A DNA stretch of 19,798 nucleotides from a virus (Duplodnaviria; Heunggongvirae; Uroviricota; Caudoviricetes), in IMG/VR virus record IMGVR_UViG_2547132280_000005, one strand, 5' to 3'. This document shows positions 1,131 to 9,452 of the stretch, piece after piece. The notes beneath the pieces were generated by a model. It was not told the DNA's origin, made no database searches, and worked only from the letters and a program-made list of their open reading frames with translations. The position numbers were made by a program, and so were the translations under genes. Position 1 is the first letter of the stretch. Every line of letters starts with the position of its first letter.

Positions 1131-1430
1131 TTTGTCGCTCCATGCGTTTGCTCGTCATCTAGCGGTTAAAATATTACTTCAAATCTTACTGCATAAAAGA
1201 GGAAAAGTATGAAAGTTTGAGTACATCGACCTTACATACATCTGTCGGTTGCATATCCCTCCTGGATGCCAGCAAGGCTCAATTTTGTTACGCAATCAAC
1301 ACTATTCATTAAAAACAGGCTTAATATTTGACATAAATCATCAACAAAACACAAAGAGGTCAGACCAGATTGAAACAATAAACACGATAATGCTAACTAC
1401 GCGCCATCGTATCACATGGAAGGTTTACCA

Positions 1431-1862
1431 ATGGCTCAGGCTGCCATTTTTAAAGAAATATTCGATCAAGTGCGTAAAGATTTAAACTGTGAATTATTTT
1501 ATTCTGAGCTAAAACGTCACAATGTCTCACTTTATATTTACTATTTAGCCACAGATAATATTCACATTGTGTTAGAAAACGACAACATAGTGTTAGTAAA
1601 AGGACTCAAAAAGGTTGTAAATGTTAAATTCTCCAGAAACAAACATCTTATAGAGACCTCCTATAATAAGTTGAAATCAAAAGAAATCACATTTCAACAA
1701 TACAGGGAAAATCTTGCTAAAGCAGGAGTTTTCCGATGGGTTACAAATATCCAGGAACACCAAAGATATTACTATGCCTTTGATAACTCATTACTATTTA
1801 CTGAAAGCATCCAGAAAATTACTGAAAGCATCCAGAAAACTACACAGATCTTACCACGCTAA
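1431..1862 (+). CDS. DUF1398-family prophage protein (YdfO/YbcV-like)
   Basis: ORF 1416-1862; the second ATG at 1431 has GGAAGG 9 nt upstream. Sequence and position (next to the gns/cspI cluster) fit the Qin ydfO locus. Contains an in-frame 7-aa duplication ([14 protein letters not shown]). Confidence 0.65.
1800..1842 (+). repeat. 21-bp in-frame tandem duplication (2 copies, 1 mismatch) inside the DUF1398 gene
   Basis: actgaaagcatccagaaaatt / actgaaagcatccagaaaact, read directly from the sequence. Confidence 0.85.
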
Positions 1863-2013
1863 ACCATAACGTCCGGCTTCTCTCACTCCTGAGCCGGACT
1901 GCATTGGTTTAATAAAAACCATCAACAATTGTGATTTAGATATTCGGAACCATTCAAATATAACAAAACCCCGTAAAAACGAGGTTTATGGATAAATTTT
2001 ATTATTGAATACA

Positions 2014-2190
2014 TCAGATTAAATTAATCTTGACATCATAGCTTTCAAGACCCGTCATTTTTTCCCGTGCGGTAAACTGAATACTGGTAACTTCTTTCCC
2101 GGTCTTTTTCTTAAGTTCAATAATTTTTTTTGTTATATATTCAGAAATATCTGCTTCTGCTTTTGTTTTTAAGTCTTCAATATTCATCAT
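2014..2190 (-). CDS. GnsA/GnsB-family small protein (58 aa)
   Basis: Minus-strand ORF MMNIEDLKTKAEADISEYITKKIIELKKKTGKEVTSIQFTAREKMTGLESYDVKINLI; SD AAAGAGGAAATG. Closely resembles E. coli GnsA/GnsB as I recall them (...NTGKEV..I.FTAREKMTGLESYDVKI...). Not in the ORF track because it is under 60 aa. Confidence 0.65.
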   Translation of the reverse strand: MMNIEDLKTKAEADISEYITKKIIELKKKTGKEVTSIQFTAREKMTGLESYDVKINLI

Positions 2191-2358
2191 TTCCTCTTTT
2201 AGTCTGTTATGACTTTCCAGTTACACAGTAAGTCGATTATATGGTGCAAACGTGTAAAAGATAAGATGAAACATCGCAATAATCAACATACGATAGTCTA
2301 AATTTTACACAAACAGACAAAGAGAATTTTCCTGAATTATCAATGCAATAGCATCAAA

Positions 2359-2550
2359 TCAACTCAAGAGCCTTATTGCTGCTTCCAGAATTTCTTCTGA
2401 AGTAACATGTCGATCCGCGGCTACATAAATGACTTTATGATCTCCGGTCAGAGATGGAAACCCTGCGGCCATTACAGTAAGGTGTGTTTTTTCGCCATTT
2501 GGATATTCACGCATGATGGTGTTAACTCCAGTCATCGCTGGCACTACCAC
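2359..2550 (-). CDS. Hypothetical protein (63 aa from GTG; possibly the 3' part of a frameshifted longer gene)
   Basis: ORF-track ORF starting at GTG 2550 with no convincing SD. An ATG at 2588 (MKKIIVFLTLNQQW*) sits in another frame, upstream of an A7 run. Confidence 0.35.
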   Translation of the reverse strand: MVVPAMTGVNTIMREYPNGEKTHLTVMAAGFPSLTGDHKVIYVAADRHVTSEEILEAAIRLLS

Positions 2551-2630
2551 TGCTGGTTCAGAGTTAAAAAAACTATGATTTTTTTCATGATGTTACCGTA
2601 GTATGTGAGTATCCATCGAATAGACACCAA

Positions 2631-2653
2631 GCAAAAAAGCTCCCGAAGGAGCC
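2631..2653 (-). terminator. Intrinsic terminator (GCTCC-CGAA-GGAGC hairpin followed by a U6 tract on the minus strand)
   Basis: Stem-loop plus T-run seen in the sequence, about 200 nt downstream of the cspI stop. Confidence 0.5.
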
Positions 2654-2859
2654 TTCATTTTCACTTTTTTAAATCCAACGACAGACGGCTGGCATTTAAG
2701 TATTGTGAAATATTATCAAATGTAATCATCATTGATTTACAAAAGATACATTTTGCCCCGAAAGGATTCATGTCAGAAACATCAAAAGATGATGTTCTAT
2801 ACTGGGAACCATGACAACACGGGCATCTAAAGTGAATATGGTTTGTAATATTGTCTACC

Positions 2860-3072
2860 TCAAAGCGCCACTACATGAACAGCGGCAGGACCTTTAGGTC
2901 CGTTCTCAATACCAAATTCAACTTCCTGATTCTCAGTTAATGTTTTGAAATCGTTGCTCTGAATTGCTGAGAAATGGACAAACACATCTTTGCTGCCATC
3001 TTTCGGCGTGATGAAACCAAAACCTTTTTCAGGGTTAAACCATTTCACTAAACCAGTCATTTTGTTAGACAT
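2860..3072 (-). CDS. cspI: Cold-shock protein CspI
   Basis: 70-aa CspA-family protein [70 protein letters not shown] with RNP1/RNP2 motifs; matches CspI as recalled. A long AT-rich leader follows upstream (3073-3430), typical of csp genes. Confidence 0.9.
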
Positions 3073-3433
3073 AATTATTACCTTTTGAAGAAATTAGCCC
3101 TTGGGCAGAATGGTCCGAAAAAAATATCAGAGAGAAAAACCAACAAGGAAATCTCAAGAGGTACAAATAATAAAATTATAACAATGACTGCTTCAGATAA
3201 ATTTGTAACAAACCAGAACACCATTAACGCATGATTAACCACCCATAGCAAGGATTACTTTTGTAAAGAAAAACACAGCAATGAAAGAATAGCTTTATTT
3301 ATTAATAAAACGTGTCATTCTGATTAAGACCTTTTATCTTACCCTTAAGATTTCAGGAATTTTGGCTCATGGAAGAGTCCTTTTTATTCAAATTTTACAT
3401 TCCGCGATGTAAATGTTCCGATTTAATATTACC

Positions 3434-4457
<1,024 letters not shown>

Positions 4458-4461
<4 letters not shown>

Positions 4462-4769
4462 AGATATTTATGATGAGGACGCTCGTGCTTATTGGCAGGA
4501 TTTTCAATCTTAAAGGAGTACTGATGCTGCAGATAAGACTCAACTTTTTCTGACAATTTTTCTGCTACTTCCAGGAAGACTTGCCGGACGCTCCTTCTGG
4601 CTGCTGCCTCATAAAACTCCAGCGCAGCTCCTTCAACACGGTCCATGGCGACATCCAGGTCAAAAATTTCACCGTCAAAGCGTTCTTTGTCCTGTAAGGC
4701 TACAGTTACCGTAACTTTATTCTCAAAATTACGGACTCCTTTCACAACCAGTTCATAGTCTTGAGTCAT
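4458..4769 (-). CDS. ydfR: DUF1327-family prophage protein YdfR-like (103 aa)
   Basis: ORF with AGGAGAG SD, sitting between holin and endolysin as in Qin; stop overlaps the endolysin start. Confidence 0.7.
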
Positions 4770-4773
4770 TGGA

Positions 4774-4989
4774 TTACTCTCCTCTCGCAGCCTTACGCCT
4801 GTCTTCTTTAATCTTGAAATAAAGATTTGTCAGATACGTCAGCAGGCCAAAAACCAGGCTACCCAGCACACCGATTGCAGCCCACTGTGACGGAGTTACT
4901 TTATCGAGTAACTGCAATGCCCAGAAACCAGCATTACCCGCCGATGTGCCATAGGCAACACCTGTTGTTAACTTATCCATTGATTTCAT
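4774..4989 (-). CDS. essQ: Pinholin, phage 21 S21-like class II holin (71 aa) with dual-start motif MKSM
   Basis: [71 protein letters not shown] is near-identical to S21 as recalled. Two TMDs, Met1/Met4 dual start, SD GGTGAGGAT. The ORF-track start at 5064 is probably not used. Confidence 0.85.
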
Positions 4990-5208
4990 ATCCTCACCCC
5001 GATGTACACGGATGGTGCAATATGTTTGAAAAGATCGGAGTCTACGGGGTAGTTTTGACAGCACACGTTGTTCTCAACGGCGCTAAAAAAACATACACAT
5101 TAAAAATGTGGGTAATTATTTTGAAAGAAAGTCATATATAAAATAATAATACGAGAAATGTTTTCATATTTAGTGTACTGTATACGGCCATTTATACAGG
5201 AAAAGCCT

Positions 5209-5379
5209 ATGTCAGAACGTAAAAACTCAAAATCACGCCGTAATTATCTCGTTAAATGTTCCTGCCCAAACTGCACCCAAGAGTCAGAACACAGTTTTTC
5301 AAGAGTACAAAAAGGTGCCCTTTTGATCTGCCCTCATTGCAACAAAGTATTCCAGACAAATCTTAAAGCTGTAGCCTGA
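5209..5379 (+). CDS. Small zinc-ribbon protein (56 aa, CxxC...CxxC)
   Basis: ATG 5209 preceded by AGGAAAAG; CPNC-x18-CPHC motif. Inserted between the holin and cspB on the opposite strand. Confidence 0.45.
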   Translation: MSERKNSKSRRNYLVKCSCPNCTQESEHSFSRVQKGALLICPHCNKVFQTNLKAVA

Positions 5380-5438
5380 TTGATTTTATTAGTAACAAGT
5401 ATTTTTTATATTTTAATAATATATTTAAAGCAGATAAT

Positions 5439-5461
5439 AAAAAACCCGCCTGAGCGGGTTT
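5439..5461 (-). terminator. Intrinsic terminator (CCCGC-CTGA-GCGGG stem with a U6 tract on the minus strand; weaker on plus)
   Basis: Hairpin and flanking A/T runs seen in the sequence. Confidence 0.5.
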
Positions 5462-5742
5462 GAGATTGTGGTGCTTTTTGTGGGAGTCATCCACTTACGC
5501 ACTTTGTTTTGCCATGCCAGCAGTTAGCTTCTGCTGTAAAACTATTCATGCAGCAAACCTGCACTTCACCACAATGGTTAGCATACTTTTCCTGATTAAG
5601 ATTTTGCCAAATATGCTAGCCATTGTTTCATGTATTGGACCTCCTTACTTTTTATTAAAGAGATCCAATATTCACTACTCTGTCCGTATCTCTACTCAGG
5701 CATCAGCCTTCTTCGTTATCGTATACAGACGAGCGATGAATT

Positions 5743-5958
5743 TTAATCAGTAATGATGACATTTGCTGCTGCAGGACCTTTAGCACCACTCTCTATAGAG
5801 AAGGTAACCTTTTGACCTTCAAATAAGGTTCGATAATTATCATTCTGAATCGCAGAAAAATGCACAAACACATCTTTACTACCATCAACAGGAGAAATAA
5901 AGCCGAAACCTTTATCAGCGTTAAACCATTTTACTAAACCAGTCATTTTATTTGACAT
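5743..5958 (-). CDS. cspB: Cold-shock protein CspB
   Basis: 71 aa [71 protein letters not shown], CspA family; divergent from cspF as in Qin. Confidence 0.9.
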
Positions 5959-6258
5959 TCTACATTCCTTAACTTGAGCCTTTCGGCATAAATGGTTTGC
6001 ATAACAGAAACGACTTCGTACTTAATTGGAGAGACTCAAAGAAGGAATAAGTGAATAACACCTGAAATGAGAACTGCTTTAGTAAACTACTTCGTATATC
6101 GTCTGTTCTTCAAACCGACGCAATCATTAACGCATAGTTGAACATATGAAGCAATGTTTATTTTAGACATCCAGCCATCTTCAACCCCATCAAAAAACTA
6201 TAGCTTTCTTCAGGAACGTGTGTATAGTGCGCCAAGTTATCAGTATTAAGGAATTTTT

Positions 6259-6471
6259 TTGTCCCGTAAAATGACAGGAATTGTCAAAACCTTTGACGGC
6301 AAAAGCGGCAAGGGTCTTATCACCCCATCCGATGGTCGTATCGATGTCCAGCTTCATGTTTCAGCGCTCAATCTCCGCGATGCAGAAGAAATTACCACCG
6401 GATTACGCGTGGAATTTTGCCGGATAAATGGTCTGCGTGGCCCTTCAGCTGCCAATGTTTACCTTTCATGA
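6259..6471 (+). CDS. cspF: Cold-shock protein CspF-like
   Basis: 70-aa CspA-family ORF ([70 protein letters not shown]). Apparent TTG start at 6259 with AAGGAA SD 5 nt upstream. Confidence 0.85.
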
Positions 6472-6525
6472 GCTATATTAAAGCTTTAATTTCAGGCCCC
6501 ATCGGATCACACATGGAGAGTTTTT

Positions 6526-6615
6526 ATGAATAACCCCGTCTGTCTTGATGACTGGTTGATTGGCTTTAAAAGCTTATGCTGTACTTTGGCCGTAATAGCT
6601 CTGCTAATAATATAA
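6526..6615 (+). CDS. Hypothetical 29-aa hydrophobic peptide ([29 protein letters not shown])
   Basis: ATG 6526 with GGAGAG SD 6 nt upstream; C-terminal hydrophobic stretch. Too short for the ORF track. Coding status unproven. Confidence 0.3.
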
Positions 6616-6764
6616 TAAGCAGACTCATTGTGTTTAGGGACATTGTACTGGAAGAAAACATTTTAAACATCAGGCAAATAACCAAGTCACCAGCTAAATA
6701 ATAAGTTAACAGACATGAGTCCCGGGATGAGATTCAACATTACCATTGCCCCATTTAAAGCACA

Positions 6765-6795
6765 AAACCCGCTCATCAGCGGGTTTTCTACTTTT
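6765..6795 (-). terminator. Intrinsic terminator hairpin (AACCCGCT-CATC-AGCGGGTT) with T-rich flanks on both strands; candidate tR'-like late terminator
   Basis: 8-bp GC-rich stem plus T-runs seen in the sequence, about 100 bp downstream of Q on the minus strand. Confidence 0.45.
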
Positions 6796-6832
6796 TCTTA
6801 ACGTCGGGTATACAAAGCCCATCGTTGAAAAA

Positions 6833-6861
6833 ATTTTATCCATATTTTTTGAAAAATGCAA
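6833..6861 (-). promoter_or_regulatory. Candidate sigma70 late promoter (PR'-like) downstream of Q: TTGCAT-17 bp-TAAAAT
   Basis: -35 TTGCAT (reverse complement of 6856-6861) and -10 TAAAAT (reverse complement of 6833-6838) with a 17-bp spacer. The position just 3' of the Q gene matches lambdoid PR'/qut organisation. Confidence 0.35.
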
Positions 6862-6892
6862 ACATCATGTCGCCATCTTCAGCAAAAATCAT

Positions 6893-7645
6893 TTATCTCG
6901 TCACCTTCCTCAATTGCGCTTCCGCGTATGCTTCTTCCTGCCAGCACTTTGTTACCAGTTTACCAATGACGTCCGCATACCCCTTATACCACTGATAATC
7001 GGTCAGGTCTGGTACCAGCTTCTGGACATGACGTCGTGCCAGCGTGGTCGGTAAACGACTAAACCGGTTTCCATTACAACGCCCACAAATCTTATATACC
7101 GGTACGCCATGAAACCGGGTTCTTTTTTCATCCAGAACAATCCCTTTACCCTTACACCCTCTGCACGCTGTGCTGGCTTCGCCCTTACCATGGCAATGCT
7201 GACATAGTTCCTTCACCCATTCTTCCTTGATTACAGATTCCCCGCGTCTGTAGTGTTTCACCACTTCGCGCAATACATTATAAAATCCCGTACCTGAACA
7301 ATGCTCACAGCGAGCCTTACTTGCCGCAGACCTGGAGTAATCAGCAAAGGCAAAACTCACGAGGTAAGGAATAATCTGTAACCGGATTTCTTCACTCAAT
7401 TTGTTCAATGTCGGGTTATCCAGTGCCATCGCGTAATTTAGCAGGCCTTCAATCGCAAACTGAGGGTCCTGAACACCAACTTTTGCCAGAAATAAGGCCA
7501 ACCCAAGTGGTGCTTTCGACTGCACCATCCCCTGCGCTGCCATTACATCCGTAATTGTTAAACAACCGGTGCCTGTCGCTGGAGCGTCATCGCTCAATTT
7601 TGGAGATTTTGGGGAGTAATATTTTGGTAAGGCTTCAAGGTTCAT
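6893..7645 (-). CDS. quuQ: Late-gene antitermination protein Q
   Basis: About 250 aa with multiple CxxC zinc-binding motifs (CEHCSGTG, CQHCHGKG, CRGCKGKG, CGRCNG) typical of Q-family antiterminators. ATG 7645 has GGAG SD and sits 13 bp after the ydfU stop; ATG 7675 is the alternative. Confidence 0.8.
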   Translation of the reverse strand: MNLEALPKYYSPKSPKLSDDAPATGTGCLTITDVMAAQGMVQSKAPLGLALFLAKVGVQDPQFAIEGLLNYAMALDNPTLNKLSEEIRLQIIPYLVSFAFADYSRSAASKARCEHCSGTGFYNVLREVVKHYRRGESVIKEEWVKELCQHCHGKGEASTACRGCKGKGIVLDEKRTRFHGVPVYKICGRCNGNRFSRLPTTLARRHVQKLVPDLTDYQWYKGYADVIGKLVTKCWQEEAYAEAQLRKVTR

Positions 7646-7658
7646 GCTCGTTCTCCAC

Positions 7659-8708
7659 TTACGCCAGTACGCCAATTGCCAGCGCGCGATCGATAAAACG
7701 AAATATCAGCTCCAGTTGGGAGCCATACTTATCTTCAAATGCCACTGTATCCGTATGCAGCTCGTTGTGATGCTTTCTGCACAAAGGCAACACAAAGAGA
7801 TCATGTGCTTTTGTTCCCATTCCGCCCTGCCCGTGACCAATCAGATGATGCGGATCGTCGGCTGGCATACCGCAGCAAGCACACGGCTGTGTCTTAACCC
7901 AACGTGTGTATTTCTCCTTAACCCAGCGGCGACGTTTAGGCAGCTTCATGAAAGATTCCGGAGACTCTGGATCAACGGTGATGCTTACCACCGTCTTTTC
8001 CTGTGGTGATTTTTGTTGCTGGTGGGCGTAAGGCAACGGTGCAAGATTTTTTGTGCGTTGTTTCAATATGCTGGTGGCGGTCTGCTCTCCCGGTACGATG
8101 TCGCTTTCGCGGTACACCGAGCAGATTTTTTCCGCTGGTAATCCCAGCGAACGACGCGATACAGCCTCAGGTAGTGCATCCACCACCTGATTGCAGACCG
8201 CCCACCAGGATAATTCAGCCAAAGATAATTCCCGCTCCTGCGTACCGCTTATTGCGTGACGGATGACGTCAATCACCCATGCTGTCAGATTTTGTTGAGC
8301 AAGCAGCTCCAGTGATTCCGATGTCTGGTCACGCAGTTGGTTGTCGCAGTGCCAGCACAACACCATTGCGCCGGTACCATAACGGTGAATGACTGTTTCA
8401 GTGTGATGGTAATCGCCATTAGGCCACTGGCAGGATGTAACATGACGTAATAGCCAGTCGGACAATGCGCCAACGCCGCCAGCAGCACGAATCACCCGTT
8501 CGTTACTAAAAAACGGCAGCAATGTTTTGTCTTCCGCCATCGGCTGGCGAACGGCAGGAACGACTCCGGATGGCAGATTACGCATGCTTTTTGGTTCCGG
8601 TTCCACCAGCACTCGAGGATTATGAAATATCTGTATGGATTCACGGCCCGGCTTAAGGACCACCAGCCCAAGCTCAGGCACCAGAACAGGTCTAAGTAAT
8701 ACCCGCAC
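7659..8708 (-). CDS. ydfU: DUF968-family prophage protein YdfU-like with C-terminal HNH-like motif (349 aa from GTG)
   Basis: GTG at 8708 with GGAGG 6 nt upstream, 1 nt after the upstream gene's stop; the ATG at 8747 would overlap that gene by 38 bp. C-terminus CACCGMPADDPHHLIGHGQGG...CRKHHNELH is HNH-nuclease-like. Confidence 0.7.
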   Translation of the reverse strand: MRVLLRPVLVPELGLVVLKPGRESIQIFHNPRVLVEPEPKSMRNLPSGVVPAVRQPMAEDKTLLPFFSNERVIRAAGGVGALSDWLLRHVTSCQWPNGDYHHTETVIHRYGTGAMVLCWHCDNQLRDQTSESLELLAQQNLTAWVIDVIRHAISGTQERELSLAELSWWAVCNQVVDALPEAVSRRSLGLPAEKICSVYRESDIVPGEQTATSILKQRTKNLAPLPYAHQQQKSPQEKTVVSITVDPESPESFMKLPKRRRWVKEKYTRWVKTQPCACCGMPADDPHHLIGHGQGGMGTKAHDLFVLPLCRKHHNELHTDTVAFEDKYGSQLELIFRFIDRALAIGVLA

Positions 8709-8709
8709 G

Positions 8710-8988
8710 TTACCTCCAGATCCGTTGCTGGAAAGTGCGGGACGCACGTGGTGGGCGTTCGGAATAAGGCAGCCTGACAGAGATTATCCAGTGCCGATAG
8801 TCGAGACTGAGAGCTTTCTTAACCTCGAACCCGCGCCTGCGGTAAGAATGAATCAGCCATTCGGCCTGTTCTGCAGTGCATGGAGGGTGCTGGAACCATT
8901 CAGACTTGAATGCGTGAGAATACCGCCCGTGCGTGCAGGCAAGAACGGGCGAATTATCAGAATTGTAATATTTTGCGTTGCGTGCCAT
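8710..8988 (-). CDS. Hypothetical prophage protein (92 aa, Cys/His-containing)
   Basis: ORF with GGAG SD 10 nt upstream of the ATG; translationally adjacent to ydfU. Family not recognised. Confidence 0.5.
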   Translation of the reverse strand: MARNAKYYNSDNSPVLACTHGRYSHAFKSEWFQHPPCTAEQAEWLIHSYRRRGFEVKKALSLDYRHWIISVRLPYSERPPRASRTFQQRIWR

Positions 8989-9054
8989 CGGTTTTCTCCG
9001 GTGGCACGGTGTTACTCAGCGGGAGTTCAGCCCCGCGCAAGATTGTAGATGAGT

Positions 9055-9306
9055 TTATTCTCCTGAAAAAGCAGAAAAGCCAGCTTTTATTCCGATCTCT
9101 TTCAATGCCTGTAATGAAGTGACAAACTCACCTTCGCGCAAGATAAATCCGTCCGTGACCCGAGCATCCACAAAATTAATTAACGCAGCCCCATTCTTTC
9201 GCAAACACATAATGCGGTAATGACTAACAAGATTTCCATTTTCAACGCACACAGCATAGAGGCCATCTTCACAAAAAATTTTACGCAGTTCTTCGATGTT
9301 CATCAT
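9055..9306 (-). CDS. rem: Hypothetical prophage protein, Rem-like (83 aa)
   Basis: 83-aa ORF between the relBE-hokD terminator and ydfU, the position and length of Qin rem. Sequence identity is not verifiable from memory. Confidence 0.5.
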   Translation of the reverse strand: MMNIEELRKIFCEDGLYAVCVENGNLVSHYRIMCLRKNGAALINFVDARVTDGFILREGEFVTSLQALKEIGIKAGFSAFSGE

Positions 9307-9420
9307 CAGAATCCTTCCGGATAATTAGCTCTCCCCTTTAAGGGACCATCCCTCTTATCCCTGCGCGCTACTTAAGTATTTTTGATTCTATTCCGGCACC
9401 GTCCAGAACTTCAAACGCGT

Positions 9421-9452
9421 TGAAAATAAAAACAAAAACCCGCCGAAGCGGG
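9421..9452 (-). terminator. Intrinsic terminator of the relB-relE-hokD operon (CCCGC-CGAA-GCGGG hairpin then UUUUUGUUUUUAUUUU)
   Basis: Strong hairpin plus T-tract on the minus strand, 70 nt downstream of the hokD stop. Confidence 0.6.

What the first reader, a model, noticed from the sequence alone, without database searches (positions are those of the whole stretch)
6526..6615. Unlisted 29-aa hydrophobic ORF with a strong SD between cspF and Q, antisense to late transcription
[29 protein letters not shown] has a GGAGAG SD at ideal spacing and a C-terminal membrane-like segment, the general shape of small membrane toxins. It lies on the strand opposite to the candidate late promoter and terminator (6765-6861), so late transcription would pass antisense through it, a layout seen in type I toxin/antisense pairs. 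It may also be non-coding.
Basis: inference. Interest (0 to 1): 0.5.

Follow-up and report, generated by a model that had tools for sequence, protein, structure and literature searches.

The report
Known small protein gene ynfS
The 29-codon reading frame is real, but it is the already catalogued E. coli Qin-prophage gene ynfS, whose translation others have shown, and nothing here supports it being a toxin-antitoxin pair.

Summary
The ORF at 6526-6615 (+), its GGAGAG Shine-Dalgarno 5 nt upstream and its hydrophobic C-terminal half are all present as described. It is not unlisted in public annotation. It is ynfS (b4750, YP_009518791.1) of the Qin cryptic prophage, PGAP calls it in every sampled genome, and it has its own Pfam family (PF23697, 80.9 bits). 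Translation is published: a chromosomal SPA tag was detected by immunoblot (VanOrsdel 2018), and strong initiation peaks were seen with retapamulin and Onc112 (Weaver 2019). Function is still listed as unknown (2024 y-ome paper).

The gene always sits in one context: cspF, then ynfS, then a bidirectional terminator (the late terminator tR'), then the late promoter PR', then a lambda-type Q gene. Among the collections searched, it was found only in E. coli and Shigella prophages and five phages, plus one Salmonella protein record.

Its nine variable sites are 1 synonymous, 7 missense and 1 nonsense, which looks neutral.

The geometry of antisense late transcription is correct, but any opposite-strand insert in this region would show it. 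No toxin-family match, antitoxin RNA, conserved antisense promoter or structured mRNA was found. The protein is made in healthy lysogens. The type I toxin reading is unsupported. The finding is ordinary and already known.

The parts
6515..6520 (+). Shine-Dalgarno GGAGAG, 5 nt upstream of the ynfS ATG
   Evidence: Read from the sequence. Unchanged in all 131 copies examined, in two flanking variants.
6526..6615 (+). ynfS (b4750) coding sequence, 29 aa, with a hydrophobic C-terminal half
   Evidence: Annotated at these coordinates in NC_000913.3. Pfam PF23697 YnfS at 80.9 bits. Published SPA-tag detection and initiation peaks.
6259..6471 (+). cspF, the upstream gene on the same strand and the probable co-transcription partner of ynfS
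   Evidence: Annotation and Pfam CSD. No terminator-like site on the + strand between cspF and 6764, and no + strand promoter-like site between 5841 and 7000. Co-transcription is inferred, not shown.
6764..6787 (.). G+C-rich hairpin with T runs on both sides. It is the late terminator tR' for the minus strand and the likely terminator of the cspF-ynfS transcript on the plus strand.
   Evidence: Terminator scan. The minus-strand fold has z = -5.5. The homologous position is annotated as a terminator downstream of Q in phage SfV.
6833..6862 (-). Late promoter (PR')-like site, TTTGCA-18-TAAAAT, downstream of Q
   Evidence: Promoter scan. It lies inside the 6764-6892 block shared at 79-93% identity with SfV, mEp460, Ayreon, the Stx2c phages and other phages listed. 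Function is inferred from homology and position.
6893..7645 (-). ydfT/quuQ, a lambda-type Q antiterminator
   Evidence: Pfam PF03589 at 181 bits. PDB chain 7ubm_Q, deposited as 'Antitermination protein Q', at E = 4.6e-36.
6607..6636 (-). AT-rich promoter-like site pointing antisense into ynfS. Considered as a possible antitoxin promoter and rejected.
   Evidence: 9/12 match. In the phage 2H10 allele the -35 changes from TAAACA to TAGATA and the -10 from TATATT to TACATT. The whole 1.3-kb region had 6 promoter-like sites against 3.4 expected by chance.

Best explanation
The ORF is ynfS, a catalogued and experimentally detected 29-aa small protein gene of the Qin-type lambdoid prophage.

It forms the Q-proximal end of an inserted gene cassette (cspB, cspF, ynfS) that lies between the late terminator tR' and the lysis genes. 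It is most likely transcribed in the lysogen together with cspF. It is translated from its own strong SD. Its transcript most likely ends at the same hairpin that serves as tR' on the other strand.

The product most likely sits in the inner membrane through its hydrophobic residues 10/11-29, as many E. coli small proteins do. Its function is unknown.

It is not a type I toxin-antitoxin module. Antisense passage of Q-modified late transcription simply follows from the cassette's opposite orientation. At most it would switch cspF-ynfS expression off during lytic growth.

Shown: identity, context, distribution and substitution pattern. Translation is shown by others. Inferred: co-transcription, membrane location, and any effect of convergent late transcription.
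For: Identity:
- Same coordinates and same peptide as b4750 ynfS.
- Pfam PF23697 at 80.9 bits against a cutoff of 27.
- UniProt name YNFS_ECOLI.

Translation (published):
- VanOrsdel 2018 (PMC6001520), Table 1, lists ynfS between cspF and ydfT with this exact sequence among the detected SPA-tagged proteins. The paper notes it was also positive in a tetracycline ribosome-profiling screen.
- Weaver 2019 (10.1101/511675) reports strong start peaks with both retapamulin and Onc112 and immunoblot detection in stationary-phase LB culture.

Context:
- cspF upstream, and the terminator, PR' and Q downstream, were seen in each locus whose context was examined: six annotated records and three genome-scan hits.
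- No + strand terminator between cspF and 6764.
- 6764-6892 is a Q-linked block shared with many lambdoid phages that lack cspF and ynfS.
- Q is lambda-type.

Hydrophobicity: residues 11-29 have mean Kyte-Doolittle 2.46.

Against: - No function is known. The 2024 y-ome paper still lists the gene as uncharacterized.
- The substitution pattern shows no purifying selection on the peptide: 1 synonymous, 7 missense and 1 nonsense among 9 variable sites. Neutral expectation is 22-27% synonymous. The neighbouring Q gene shows 70 synonymous to 37 non-synonymous (Fisher p = 0.002).
- Two viral contigs carry K15stop, and one genome has deleted the 5' half.
- Co-transcription with cspF and membrane insertion were not tested here.
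- The hydrophobic stretch contains a Lys and ends at the C terminus with no flanking charge, so the topology is uncertain.
Confidence: 0.8

Rival explanations
1. YnfS is translated but has no selected function. On this view it is a young, lineage-restricted ORF (a proto-gene) that arose by chance next to a good SD in the 3' region of the cspF transcript, and it is carried along with the cspB-cspF cassette.
For: - The substitution pattern looks neutral: 1 synonymous, 7 missense, 1 nonsense, against 22-27% synonymous expected under neutrality.
- Many single-residue variants exist. Position 22 is A, T, G, V or S.
- Premature-stop and deletion alleles exist.
- The scan of 185,579 species-representative genomes returned only three records, two E. 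coli and one Shigella flexneri. One Salmonella variant turned up in a protein cluster.
- No homologue was found elsewhere in 50,697 phage records.
- There is no paralogous sequence downstream of cspH, the chromosomal paralogue of cspF.
- The variable-site density of ynfS (7.8%) equals that of the non-coding cspB-cspF spacer (7.0%), so its conservation need not reflect selection.
Against: - The ORF is open in about 98% of copies sampled, and the SD is unchanged in all of them.
- The observed missense changes mostly keep hydrophobic character (L to M, V to L, I to M, A to T/V/G).
- Divergence rises threefold immediately after the stop codon.
- Total divergence is so small (at most 4 nt in 90) that the test has little power.
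Confidence: 0.35
2. YnfS is a type I-like membrane toxin, and the convergent Q-dependent late transcript, or a short antisense RNA from the site at 6636-6607, represses it.
For: - The size (29 aa) and hydrophobic segment resemble small membrane toxins.
- The antisense geometry is real.
- A promoter-like site points antisense into the ORF.
Against: - The peptide is translated and accumulates in ordinary cultures.
- The late transcript is absent in lysogens, so it cannot be the standing antitoxin.
- No toxin-family HMM hit and no antitoxin RNA family.
- The antisense promoter-like site is not conserved, and no minus-strand terminator lies beyond the ORF.
- The mRNA is not strongly structured and the SD is not stably sequestered.
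- Net charge is -1 and there is no basic C-terminal tail.
Confidence: 0.04
3. The region is non-coding, being simply the 3' UTR of cspF, and the ORF is a chance frame.
For: ORFs of this length are very common (67 of at least 20 aa in 3.5 kb). About three SD-preceded ORFs of at least 25 aa are expected by chance per window.
Against: Two independent kinds of published evidence show translation from this start codon: epitope-tag immunoblots and initiation-complex ribosome profiling.
Confidence: 0.02

Closest known systems
YnfS (E. coli K-12 b4750; UniProt YNFS_ECOLI; Pfam PF23697)
   Same: Identical 29-aa sequence, identical position between cspF and ydfT/quuQ, and an identical 421-nt intergenic region.
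   Different: Nothing differs in the gene itself. The window comes from a Qin-like prophage of a strain other than K-12: 98.8% identity over 9.2 kb, with an extra IS3-family element elsewhere.
Type I toxin-antitoxin systems (Hok/Sok, Ldr/Rdl, TisB/IstR-1, Ibs/Sib, ShoB/OhsC, Zor/Orz, DinQ/AgrB)
   Same: A small hydrophobic peptide under 60 aa, encoded in a prophage that also carries a true member (hokD at 9523-9678). Antisense transcription across the gene is possible.
   Different: - No sequence-family match.
- No dedicated antisense RNA gene.
- The peptide is made under normal growth.
- The mRNA is not highly structured.
- The only antisense RNA would be a long late mRNA produced solely after induction.
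Lambdoid phage 'morons' inserted between Q/tR' and the lysis genes (for example stx in Stx phages; the moron concept is cited from general knowledge of lambdoid phage genomics)
   Same: The cspB-cspF-ynfS cassette occupies exactly this slot and is absent from phages with the same Q-PR'-tR' block, such as SfV and mEp460. It is expressed in the lysogen.
   Different: cspF-ynfS points against late transcription and appears to borrow tR' as its own terminator. The cassette's own promoter was not identified here.
Other small proteins next to csp genes in E. coli prophages (YnfR, YnfQ, YmcF, YnaM)
   Same: All are short ORFs found by the same tagging study beside cold-shock-protein paralogues.
   Different: No sequence similarity was seen to the region around cspH/cspG, which includes ymcF. 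The other listed proteins were not compared. YnfR is cold-induced. No condition-specific induction of YnfS is reported in the passages read.

Membership tests
YnfS (Pfam PF23697 / b4750) | Sequence scores above the family's gathering threshold over the full length | tested here: met
   80.9 bits against a cutoff of 27, residues 1-29 on profile positions 1-29. A divergent allele scores 70.1 bits.
YnfS (Pfam PF23697 / b4750) | Genomic position between cspF and the Q antiterminator of a Qin-type prophage | tested here: met
YnfS (Pfam PF23697 / b4750) | Translated in vivo | not testable with these tools
   Documented in the literature: SPA-tag immunoblot (PMC6001520), and retapamulin/Onc112 start peaks plus immunoblot (10.1101/511675).
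Type I toxin-antitoxin system | Small (under 60 aa) hydrophobic peptide with a potential membrane helix | tested here: met
   29 aa. Residues 11-29 have mean Kyte-Doolittle 2.46. No dedicated TM predictor was run.
Type I toxin-antitoxin system | Homology to a described toxin family | tested here: not met
   No NCBIfam or PADLOC hit at E up to 10. Pfam hits only YnfS.
Type I toxin-antitoxin system | A dedicated antisense (antitoxin) RNA with its own promoter and terminator, present while the toxin is silent | tested here: not met
   - No Rfam antitoxin family; the best hits in the region are sub-threshold matches to the terminator.
- The promoter-like site at 6636-6607 is altered in the divergent allele.
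- No minus-strand terminator-like site between 6526 and 5919.
- These are computational tests only. RNA mapping was not possible.
Type I toxin-antitoxin system | Toxin translation repressed in normal growth, usually by a highly structured mRNA that hides the SD | tested here: not met
   Fold of 6472-6795 gives z = -1.27, and the SD pairs only in a weak hairpin absent from the centroid. The literature shows translation in ordinary cultures.
Type I toxin-antitoxin system | Overexpression is toxic (membrane damage or growth arrest) | not testable with these tools
   No report was found in the searchable literature.
Lambda-type Q / PR' / tR' late-control module (the context, not the ORF) | Q protein of the lambda Q family, followed by a conserved promoter and an intrinsic terminator | tested here: met
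   - PF03589 at 181 bits.
- PDB chain 7ubm_Q, deposited as 'Antitermination protein Q', at E = 4.6e-36.
- The 6764-6892 block is shared with SfV (annotated terminator), Ayreon, mEp460 and Stx2c phages.
- Hairpin fold z = -5.5.

The most novel reading that the evidence does not exclude
YnfS could be a lysogeny-only, membrane-active peptide of the cspB-cspF-ynfS cassette, for example a modulator of a host or phage membrane protein such as the holin, or a mild toxin. Its synthesis would be shut off by head-on Q-dependent late transcription through the shared bidirectional terminator. That would make the late transcript a conditional antisense switch rather than a classical antitoxin.
Probability: 0.06. 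Interest if true: 0.4.

Novelty: already known. Interest (0 to 1): 0.08.

Why it matters
It matters little as a discovery. The gene has been in the K-12 reference annotation since the 2018 tagging study, has a Pfam family, and has published translation evidence.

The residual value is modest. YnfS is still of unknown function. This analysis adds three points:
- In the collections searched it was found only in E. coli/Shigella Qin-type prophages and a few inducible phages, plus one Salmonella protein record.
- It is always tied to cspF and to the bidirectional tR' hairpin.
- It shows no detectable purifying selection.

It is therefore a candidate example of a translated but evolutionarily young small ORF, not a toxin.

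Tried and rejected
- tblastn against 50,697 phage records found only the same locus in five records from four phages, plus one chance hit at E = 8.
- I looked for a paralogous ORF downstream of cspH, the chromosomal paralogue of cspF. Homology stops at the cspF stop codon.
- Rfam at the gathering threshold found nothing in 6472-6892. At E up to 10 it found only sub-threshold hits centred on the terminator hairpin, including a weak isrK-like one.
- The PHROGs hit phrog_31207 (E = 0.12, unknown function) is not significant.
- The minus-strand promoter-like site at 6636-6607 was considered as an antitoxin promoter. I rejected it because it is not conserved and such sites are near chance frequency in this AT-rich DNA.
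- Other overlapping ORFs were considered (41 aa at 6576-6701 on the + strand; 51 aa at 6706-6861 on the - strand, which is annotated in phage PhiR42_1). Neither has a Pfam hit. The second overlaps PR' and tR'. The first is shortened by a 7-nt indel in phage 2H10.
- A lipoprotein signal was rejected by inspection: none of the three Cys residues is preceded by a lipobox.
- Literature searches for quuQ and for cspF with Qin gave nothing on transcription of this spacer.

Full report
**Observation**

The window carries an ATG at 6526 and a TAA ending at 6615 on the + strand. The frame encodes [29 protein letters not shown]. GGAGAG sits at 6515-6520, 5 nt before the ATG. The most hydrophobic 19-residue stretch is residues 11-29, with mean Kyte-Doolittle 2.46 and overall GRAVY 1.47.

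As a bare pattern this is not rare:
- There are 67 ORFs of at least 20 aa in the surrounding 3.5 kb.
- The whole window has 175 ATG ORFs of at least 25 aa.
- Nine of those have GGAG 5-10 nt upstream, against 3.1 +/- 1.8 in shuffles. At least five of the nine are annotated genes.

So the description is accurate, but the pattern alone would not prove a gene.

**Identity**

The 421-nt spacer between cspF and Q (6472-6892) is 100% identical to E. coli K-12 MG1655. Part or all of it is found in 1,629 of 5,426 complete E. coli genomes. In NC_000913.3 the ORF is annotated at exactly the corresponding coordinates (1642122-1642211) as ynfS, b4750, YP_009518791.1, 'protein YnfS', within the cryptic prophage Qin. 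PGAP calls the same ORF a hypothetical protein in every other genome inspected. Pfam has a dedicated family, PF23697 'YnfS', which the peptide matches at 80.9 bits against a cutoff of 27. UniProt names it YNFS_ECOLI.

**Published experimental evidence**

- VanOrsdel et al. 2018 (PMC6001520) list ynfS, flanked by cspF and ydfT, with this exact sequence among the 36 small proteins detected by chromosomal SPA tagging and immunoblot. They note that it was also an unidentified positive in a tetracycline-arrested ribosome-profiling screen.
- Weaver et al. [quoted passage not shown] They detect the tagged protein in stationary-phase LB cultures.
- A 2024 survey still places ynfS among the uncharacterized Qin genes (PMC11551758).
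- A transcriptome table lists it next to ldrB, ldrC and ynaM in NaF-treated cells, without further comment (PMC10100675).
- No functional or toxicity study was found.

**Anatomy of the surroundings**

cspF (6259-6471, + strand, Pfam CSD) ends 54 nt before ynfS. The consensus scan finds no + strand terminator between cspF and 6764. It also finds no + strand promoter-like site between 5841 and 7000. Co-transcription of ynfS with cspF is therefore the simplest reading, but it is an inference.

The hairpin at 6764-6787 (AAAACCCGCT-CATC-AGCGGGTTTT) has T runs on both strands. Read on the minus strand, the 81-nt segment 6830-6750 folds with z = -5.5.

The block 6764-6892 is shared at 79-93% identity with phages that lack cspF and ynfS, including SfV, mEp460, Ayreon and many Stx2c phages. 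In those phages it lies directly downstream of Q, and in SfV and Ayreon the hairpin is annotated as a terminator.

The adjacent gene (6893-7645, minus strand) is a lambda-type Q. It matches Pfam PF03589 at 181 bits and PDB chain 7ubm_Q, deposited as 'Antitermination protein Q', at E = 4.6e-36. A promoter-like site, TTTGCA-18-TAAAAT, lies at 6862-6833 on the minus strand.

So 6764-6892 is the late promoter and terminator (PR'/tR') module. The lysis genes lie further along the minus strand at 3434-4989. Q-modified transcription would indeed cross ynfS, and also cspF and ynfU, in antisense. However, this is what any opposite-strand insert in this slot would show.

**Distribution and variation**

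- A degenerate-codon scan for the N-terminal peptide found only three records among 185,579 species-representative genomes: two E. coli and one Shigella flexneri. All three have cspF upstream and the terminator downstream.
- A protein-cluster look-up adds one Salmonella enterica variant and shows 58 distinct but very similar sequences.
- Among 50,697 phage records the ORF occurs in five records from four phages: PhiR42_1, HannyBb, PhiR63_1 and 2H10, the last present as two records.
- The viral-contig scan hit its 120-locus limit.

Pooling all copies, the coding sequence has nine variable sites: one synonymous (C6), seven missense (N3K, L11M, I12T, S16I, A22T, V23L, I29M) and one nonsense (K15stop, in two contigs). 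Random substitution in this ORF would give 22-27% synonymous, 66-71% missense and 3-4% nonsense changes. The observed pattern is indistinguishable from neutral (binomial p = 0.70). It differs from the neighbouring Q gene, which shows 70 synonymous to 37 non-synonymous changes (Fisher p = 0.002). cspB and cspF together show 15 to 13, which gives Fisher p = 0.05 against ynfS.

One genome carries a deletion of about 167 nt that fuses cspF to the 3' end of ynfS.

Variable-site density is 7.8% in ynfS. That is similar to cspB (6%), cspF (7%) and the non-coding cspB-cspF spacer (7%). It jumps to 23% right after the ynfS stop codon. ynfS thus belongs to a recently spread, low-diversity cassette whose boundary lies just downstream of it. 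Its conservation need not reflect selection on the peptide. With at most four differences in 90 nt, the test has little power.

**Test of the toxin/antisense idea**

- The peptide matches no toxin family in NCBIfam, PADLOC or Pfam. The only PHROG hit is insignificant.
- Rfam finds no antitoxin RNA. The sub-threshold hits all sit on the terminator hairpin.
- One AT-rich promoter-like site (6636-6607, minus strand) points into the ORF. It is changed in both hexamers in the divergent allele. Such sites occur at near-chance frequency here, 6 found against 3.4 expected. No minus-strand terminator follows it before 5919.
- The ynfS mRNA region is not unusually structured (z = -1.27). The SD pairs only in a weak hairpin that is absent from the centroid structure.
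- YnfS is translated and accumulates in ordinary cultures of lysogens. Q-dependent late RNA is not expected to be made in an uninduced lysogen (inference from lambdoid phage biology, not measured here). A late transcript cannot be the standing antidote, and a potent toxin would not be tolerated.

Toxicity itself cannot be tested with these tools.

**Most likely mechanism**

ynfS is the last gene of a lysogen-expressed insert (cspB, cspF, ynfS) placed between tR' and the lysis genes of Qin-type lambdoid phages. It is probably transcribed from the cspF promoter and translated from its own strong SD. Its transcript probably ends at the bidirectional tR' hairpin. The product is probably a small inner-membrane protein anchored by residues 10/11-29.

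During lytic growth, head-on Q-modified RNA polymerase would be expected to suppress cspF-ynfS expression. This last step is inference.

The main rival is that YnfS is translated but not under selection, that is, a young lineage-restricted ORF. The neutral-like substitution pattern and the narrow distribution support this rival, and I give it about one chance in three. The type I toxin reading gets about 4%, and 'non-coding' about 2%.

**Verdict**

The object is the already annotated and already detected gene ynfS, and the toxin-antitoxin interpretation is not supported. Novelty: already known. Interest: low.

Noticed in passing
window 10580-11887 (ALIL pseudoknot 10913-11029; ORFs 10632-10958 and 10955-11845, + strand): The window is not K-12 itself. 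It is 98.8% identical to K-12 Qin over 1353-10510. An IS3-family element, marked by a full-length ALIL frameshift pseudoknot (116 bits), replaces the flxA-ydfX segment.
   Followed up: partly
window 6762-6828 (-): The short RNA expected from PR' to tR' gives a weak, sub-threshold Rfam hit to isrK (16.6 bits against a gathering score of 50). From my own knowledge, not checked here, isrK is the Gifsy-1 prophage sRNA located next to an antiterminator gene. The hit probably reflects only the terminator hairpin.
   Followed up: no
window 6477-6490: A perfect 14-nt AT-rich palindrome, ATTAAAGCTTTAAT, lies just after the cspF stop codon and upstream of the ynfS SD. It is too AT-rich to be an intrinsic terminator, and its role is unknown.
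   Followed up: no
window 6616-6763: Variable-site density jumps from 7-9% (cspB through ynfS) to 23% immediately after the ynfS stop codon, and phage 2H10 has a 7-nt indel here. This marks a mosaic boundary between the csp cassette and the Q-PR'-tR' module.
   Followed up: partly
L009 1269-1481 (E. coli DG342-2); L010 1345-1509 (E. coli 200112): In one isolate cspF is a pseudogene with an internal stop (Q31*) while ynfS stays intact. In another, a deletion of about 167 nt fuses cspF to the 3' end of ynfS. Both genes are therefore dispensable.
   Followed up: partly
window 6706-6861 (-): A 51-aa ORF annotated as a hypothetical protein in phage PhiR42_1 overlaps the late promoter and terminator and has no Pfam hit. 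It is probably a spurious gene call.
   Followed up: partly
YnfS residue 22 (window 6589-6591): Among the protein variants in public collections, position 22 is A, T, G, V or S. The three cysteines are nearly invariant, with single C6Y, C18Y and C19S variants seen.
   Followed up: no
protein cluster 1 (P0013): A 291-aa JGI protein named octaprenyl-diphosphate synthase is filed in the same 90% cluster as the 29-aa YnfS. This looks like a clustering or chimeric-contig artefact.
   Followed up: no
window 5209-5379 (+), 2592-2848 (-), 19688-19798 (-): Other recently named small-protein genes lie in the same window: ynfU (zinc-knuckle protein, 56 aa), ynfR, ynfQ and ynfP. ynfR and ynfQ sit next to cspI; ynfU lies between essQ and cspB; ynfP lies at the prophage edge near rspB. 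The ynfR/ynfQ coordinates are taken from the K-12 locus and may be offset by about 20 nt in the window.
   Followed up: no
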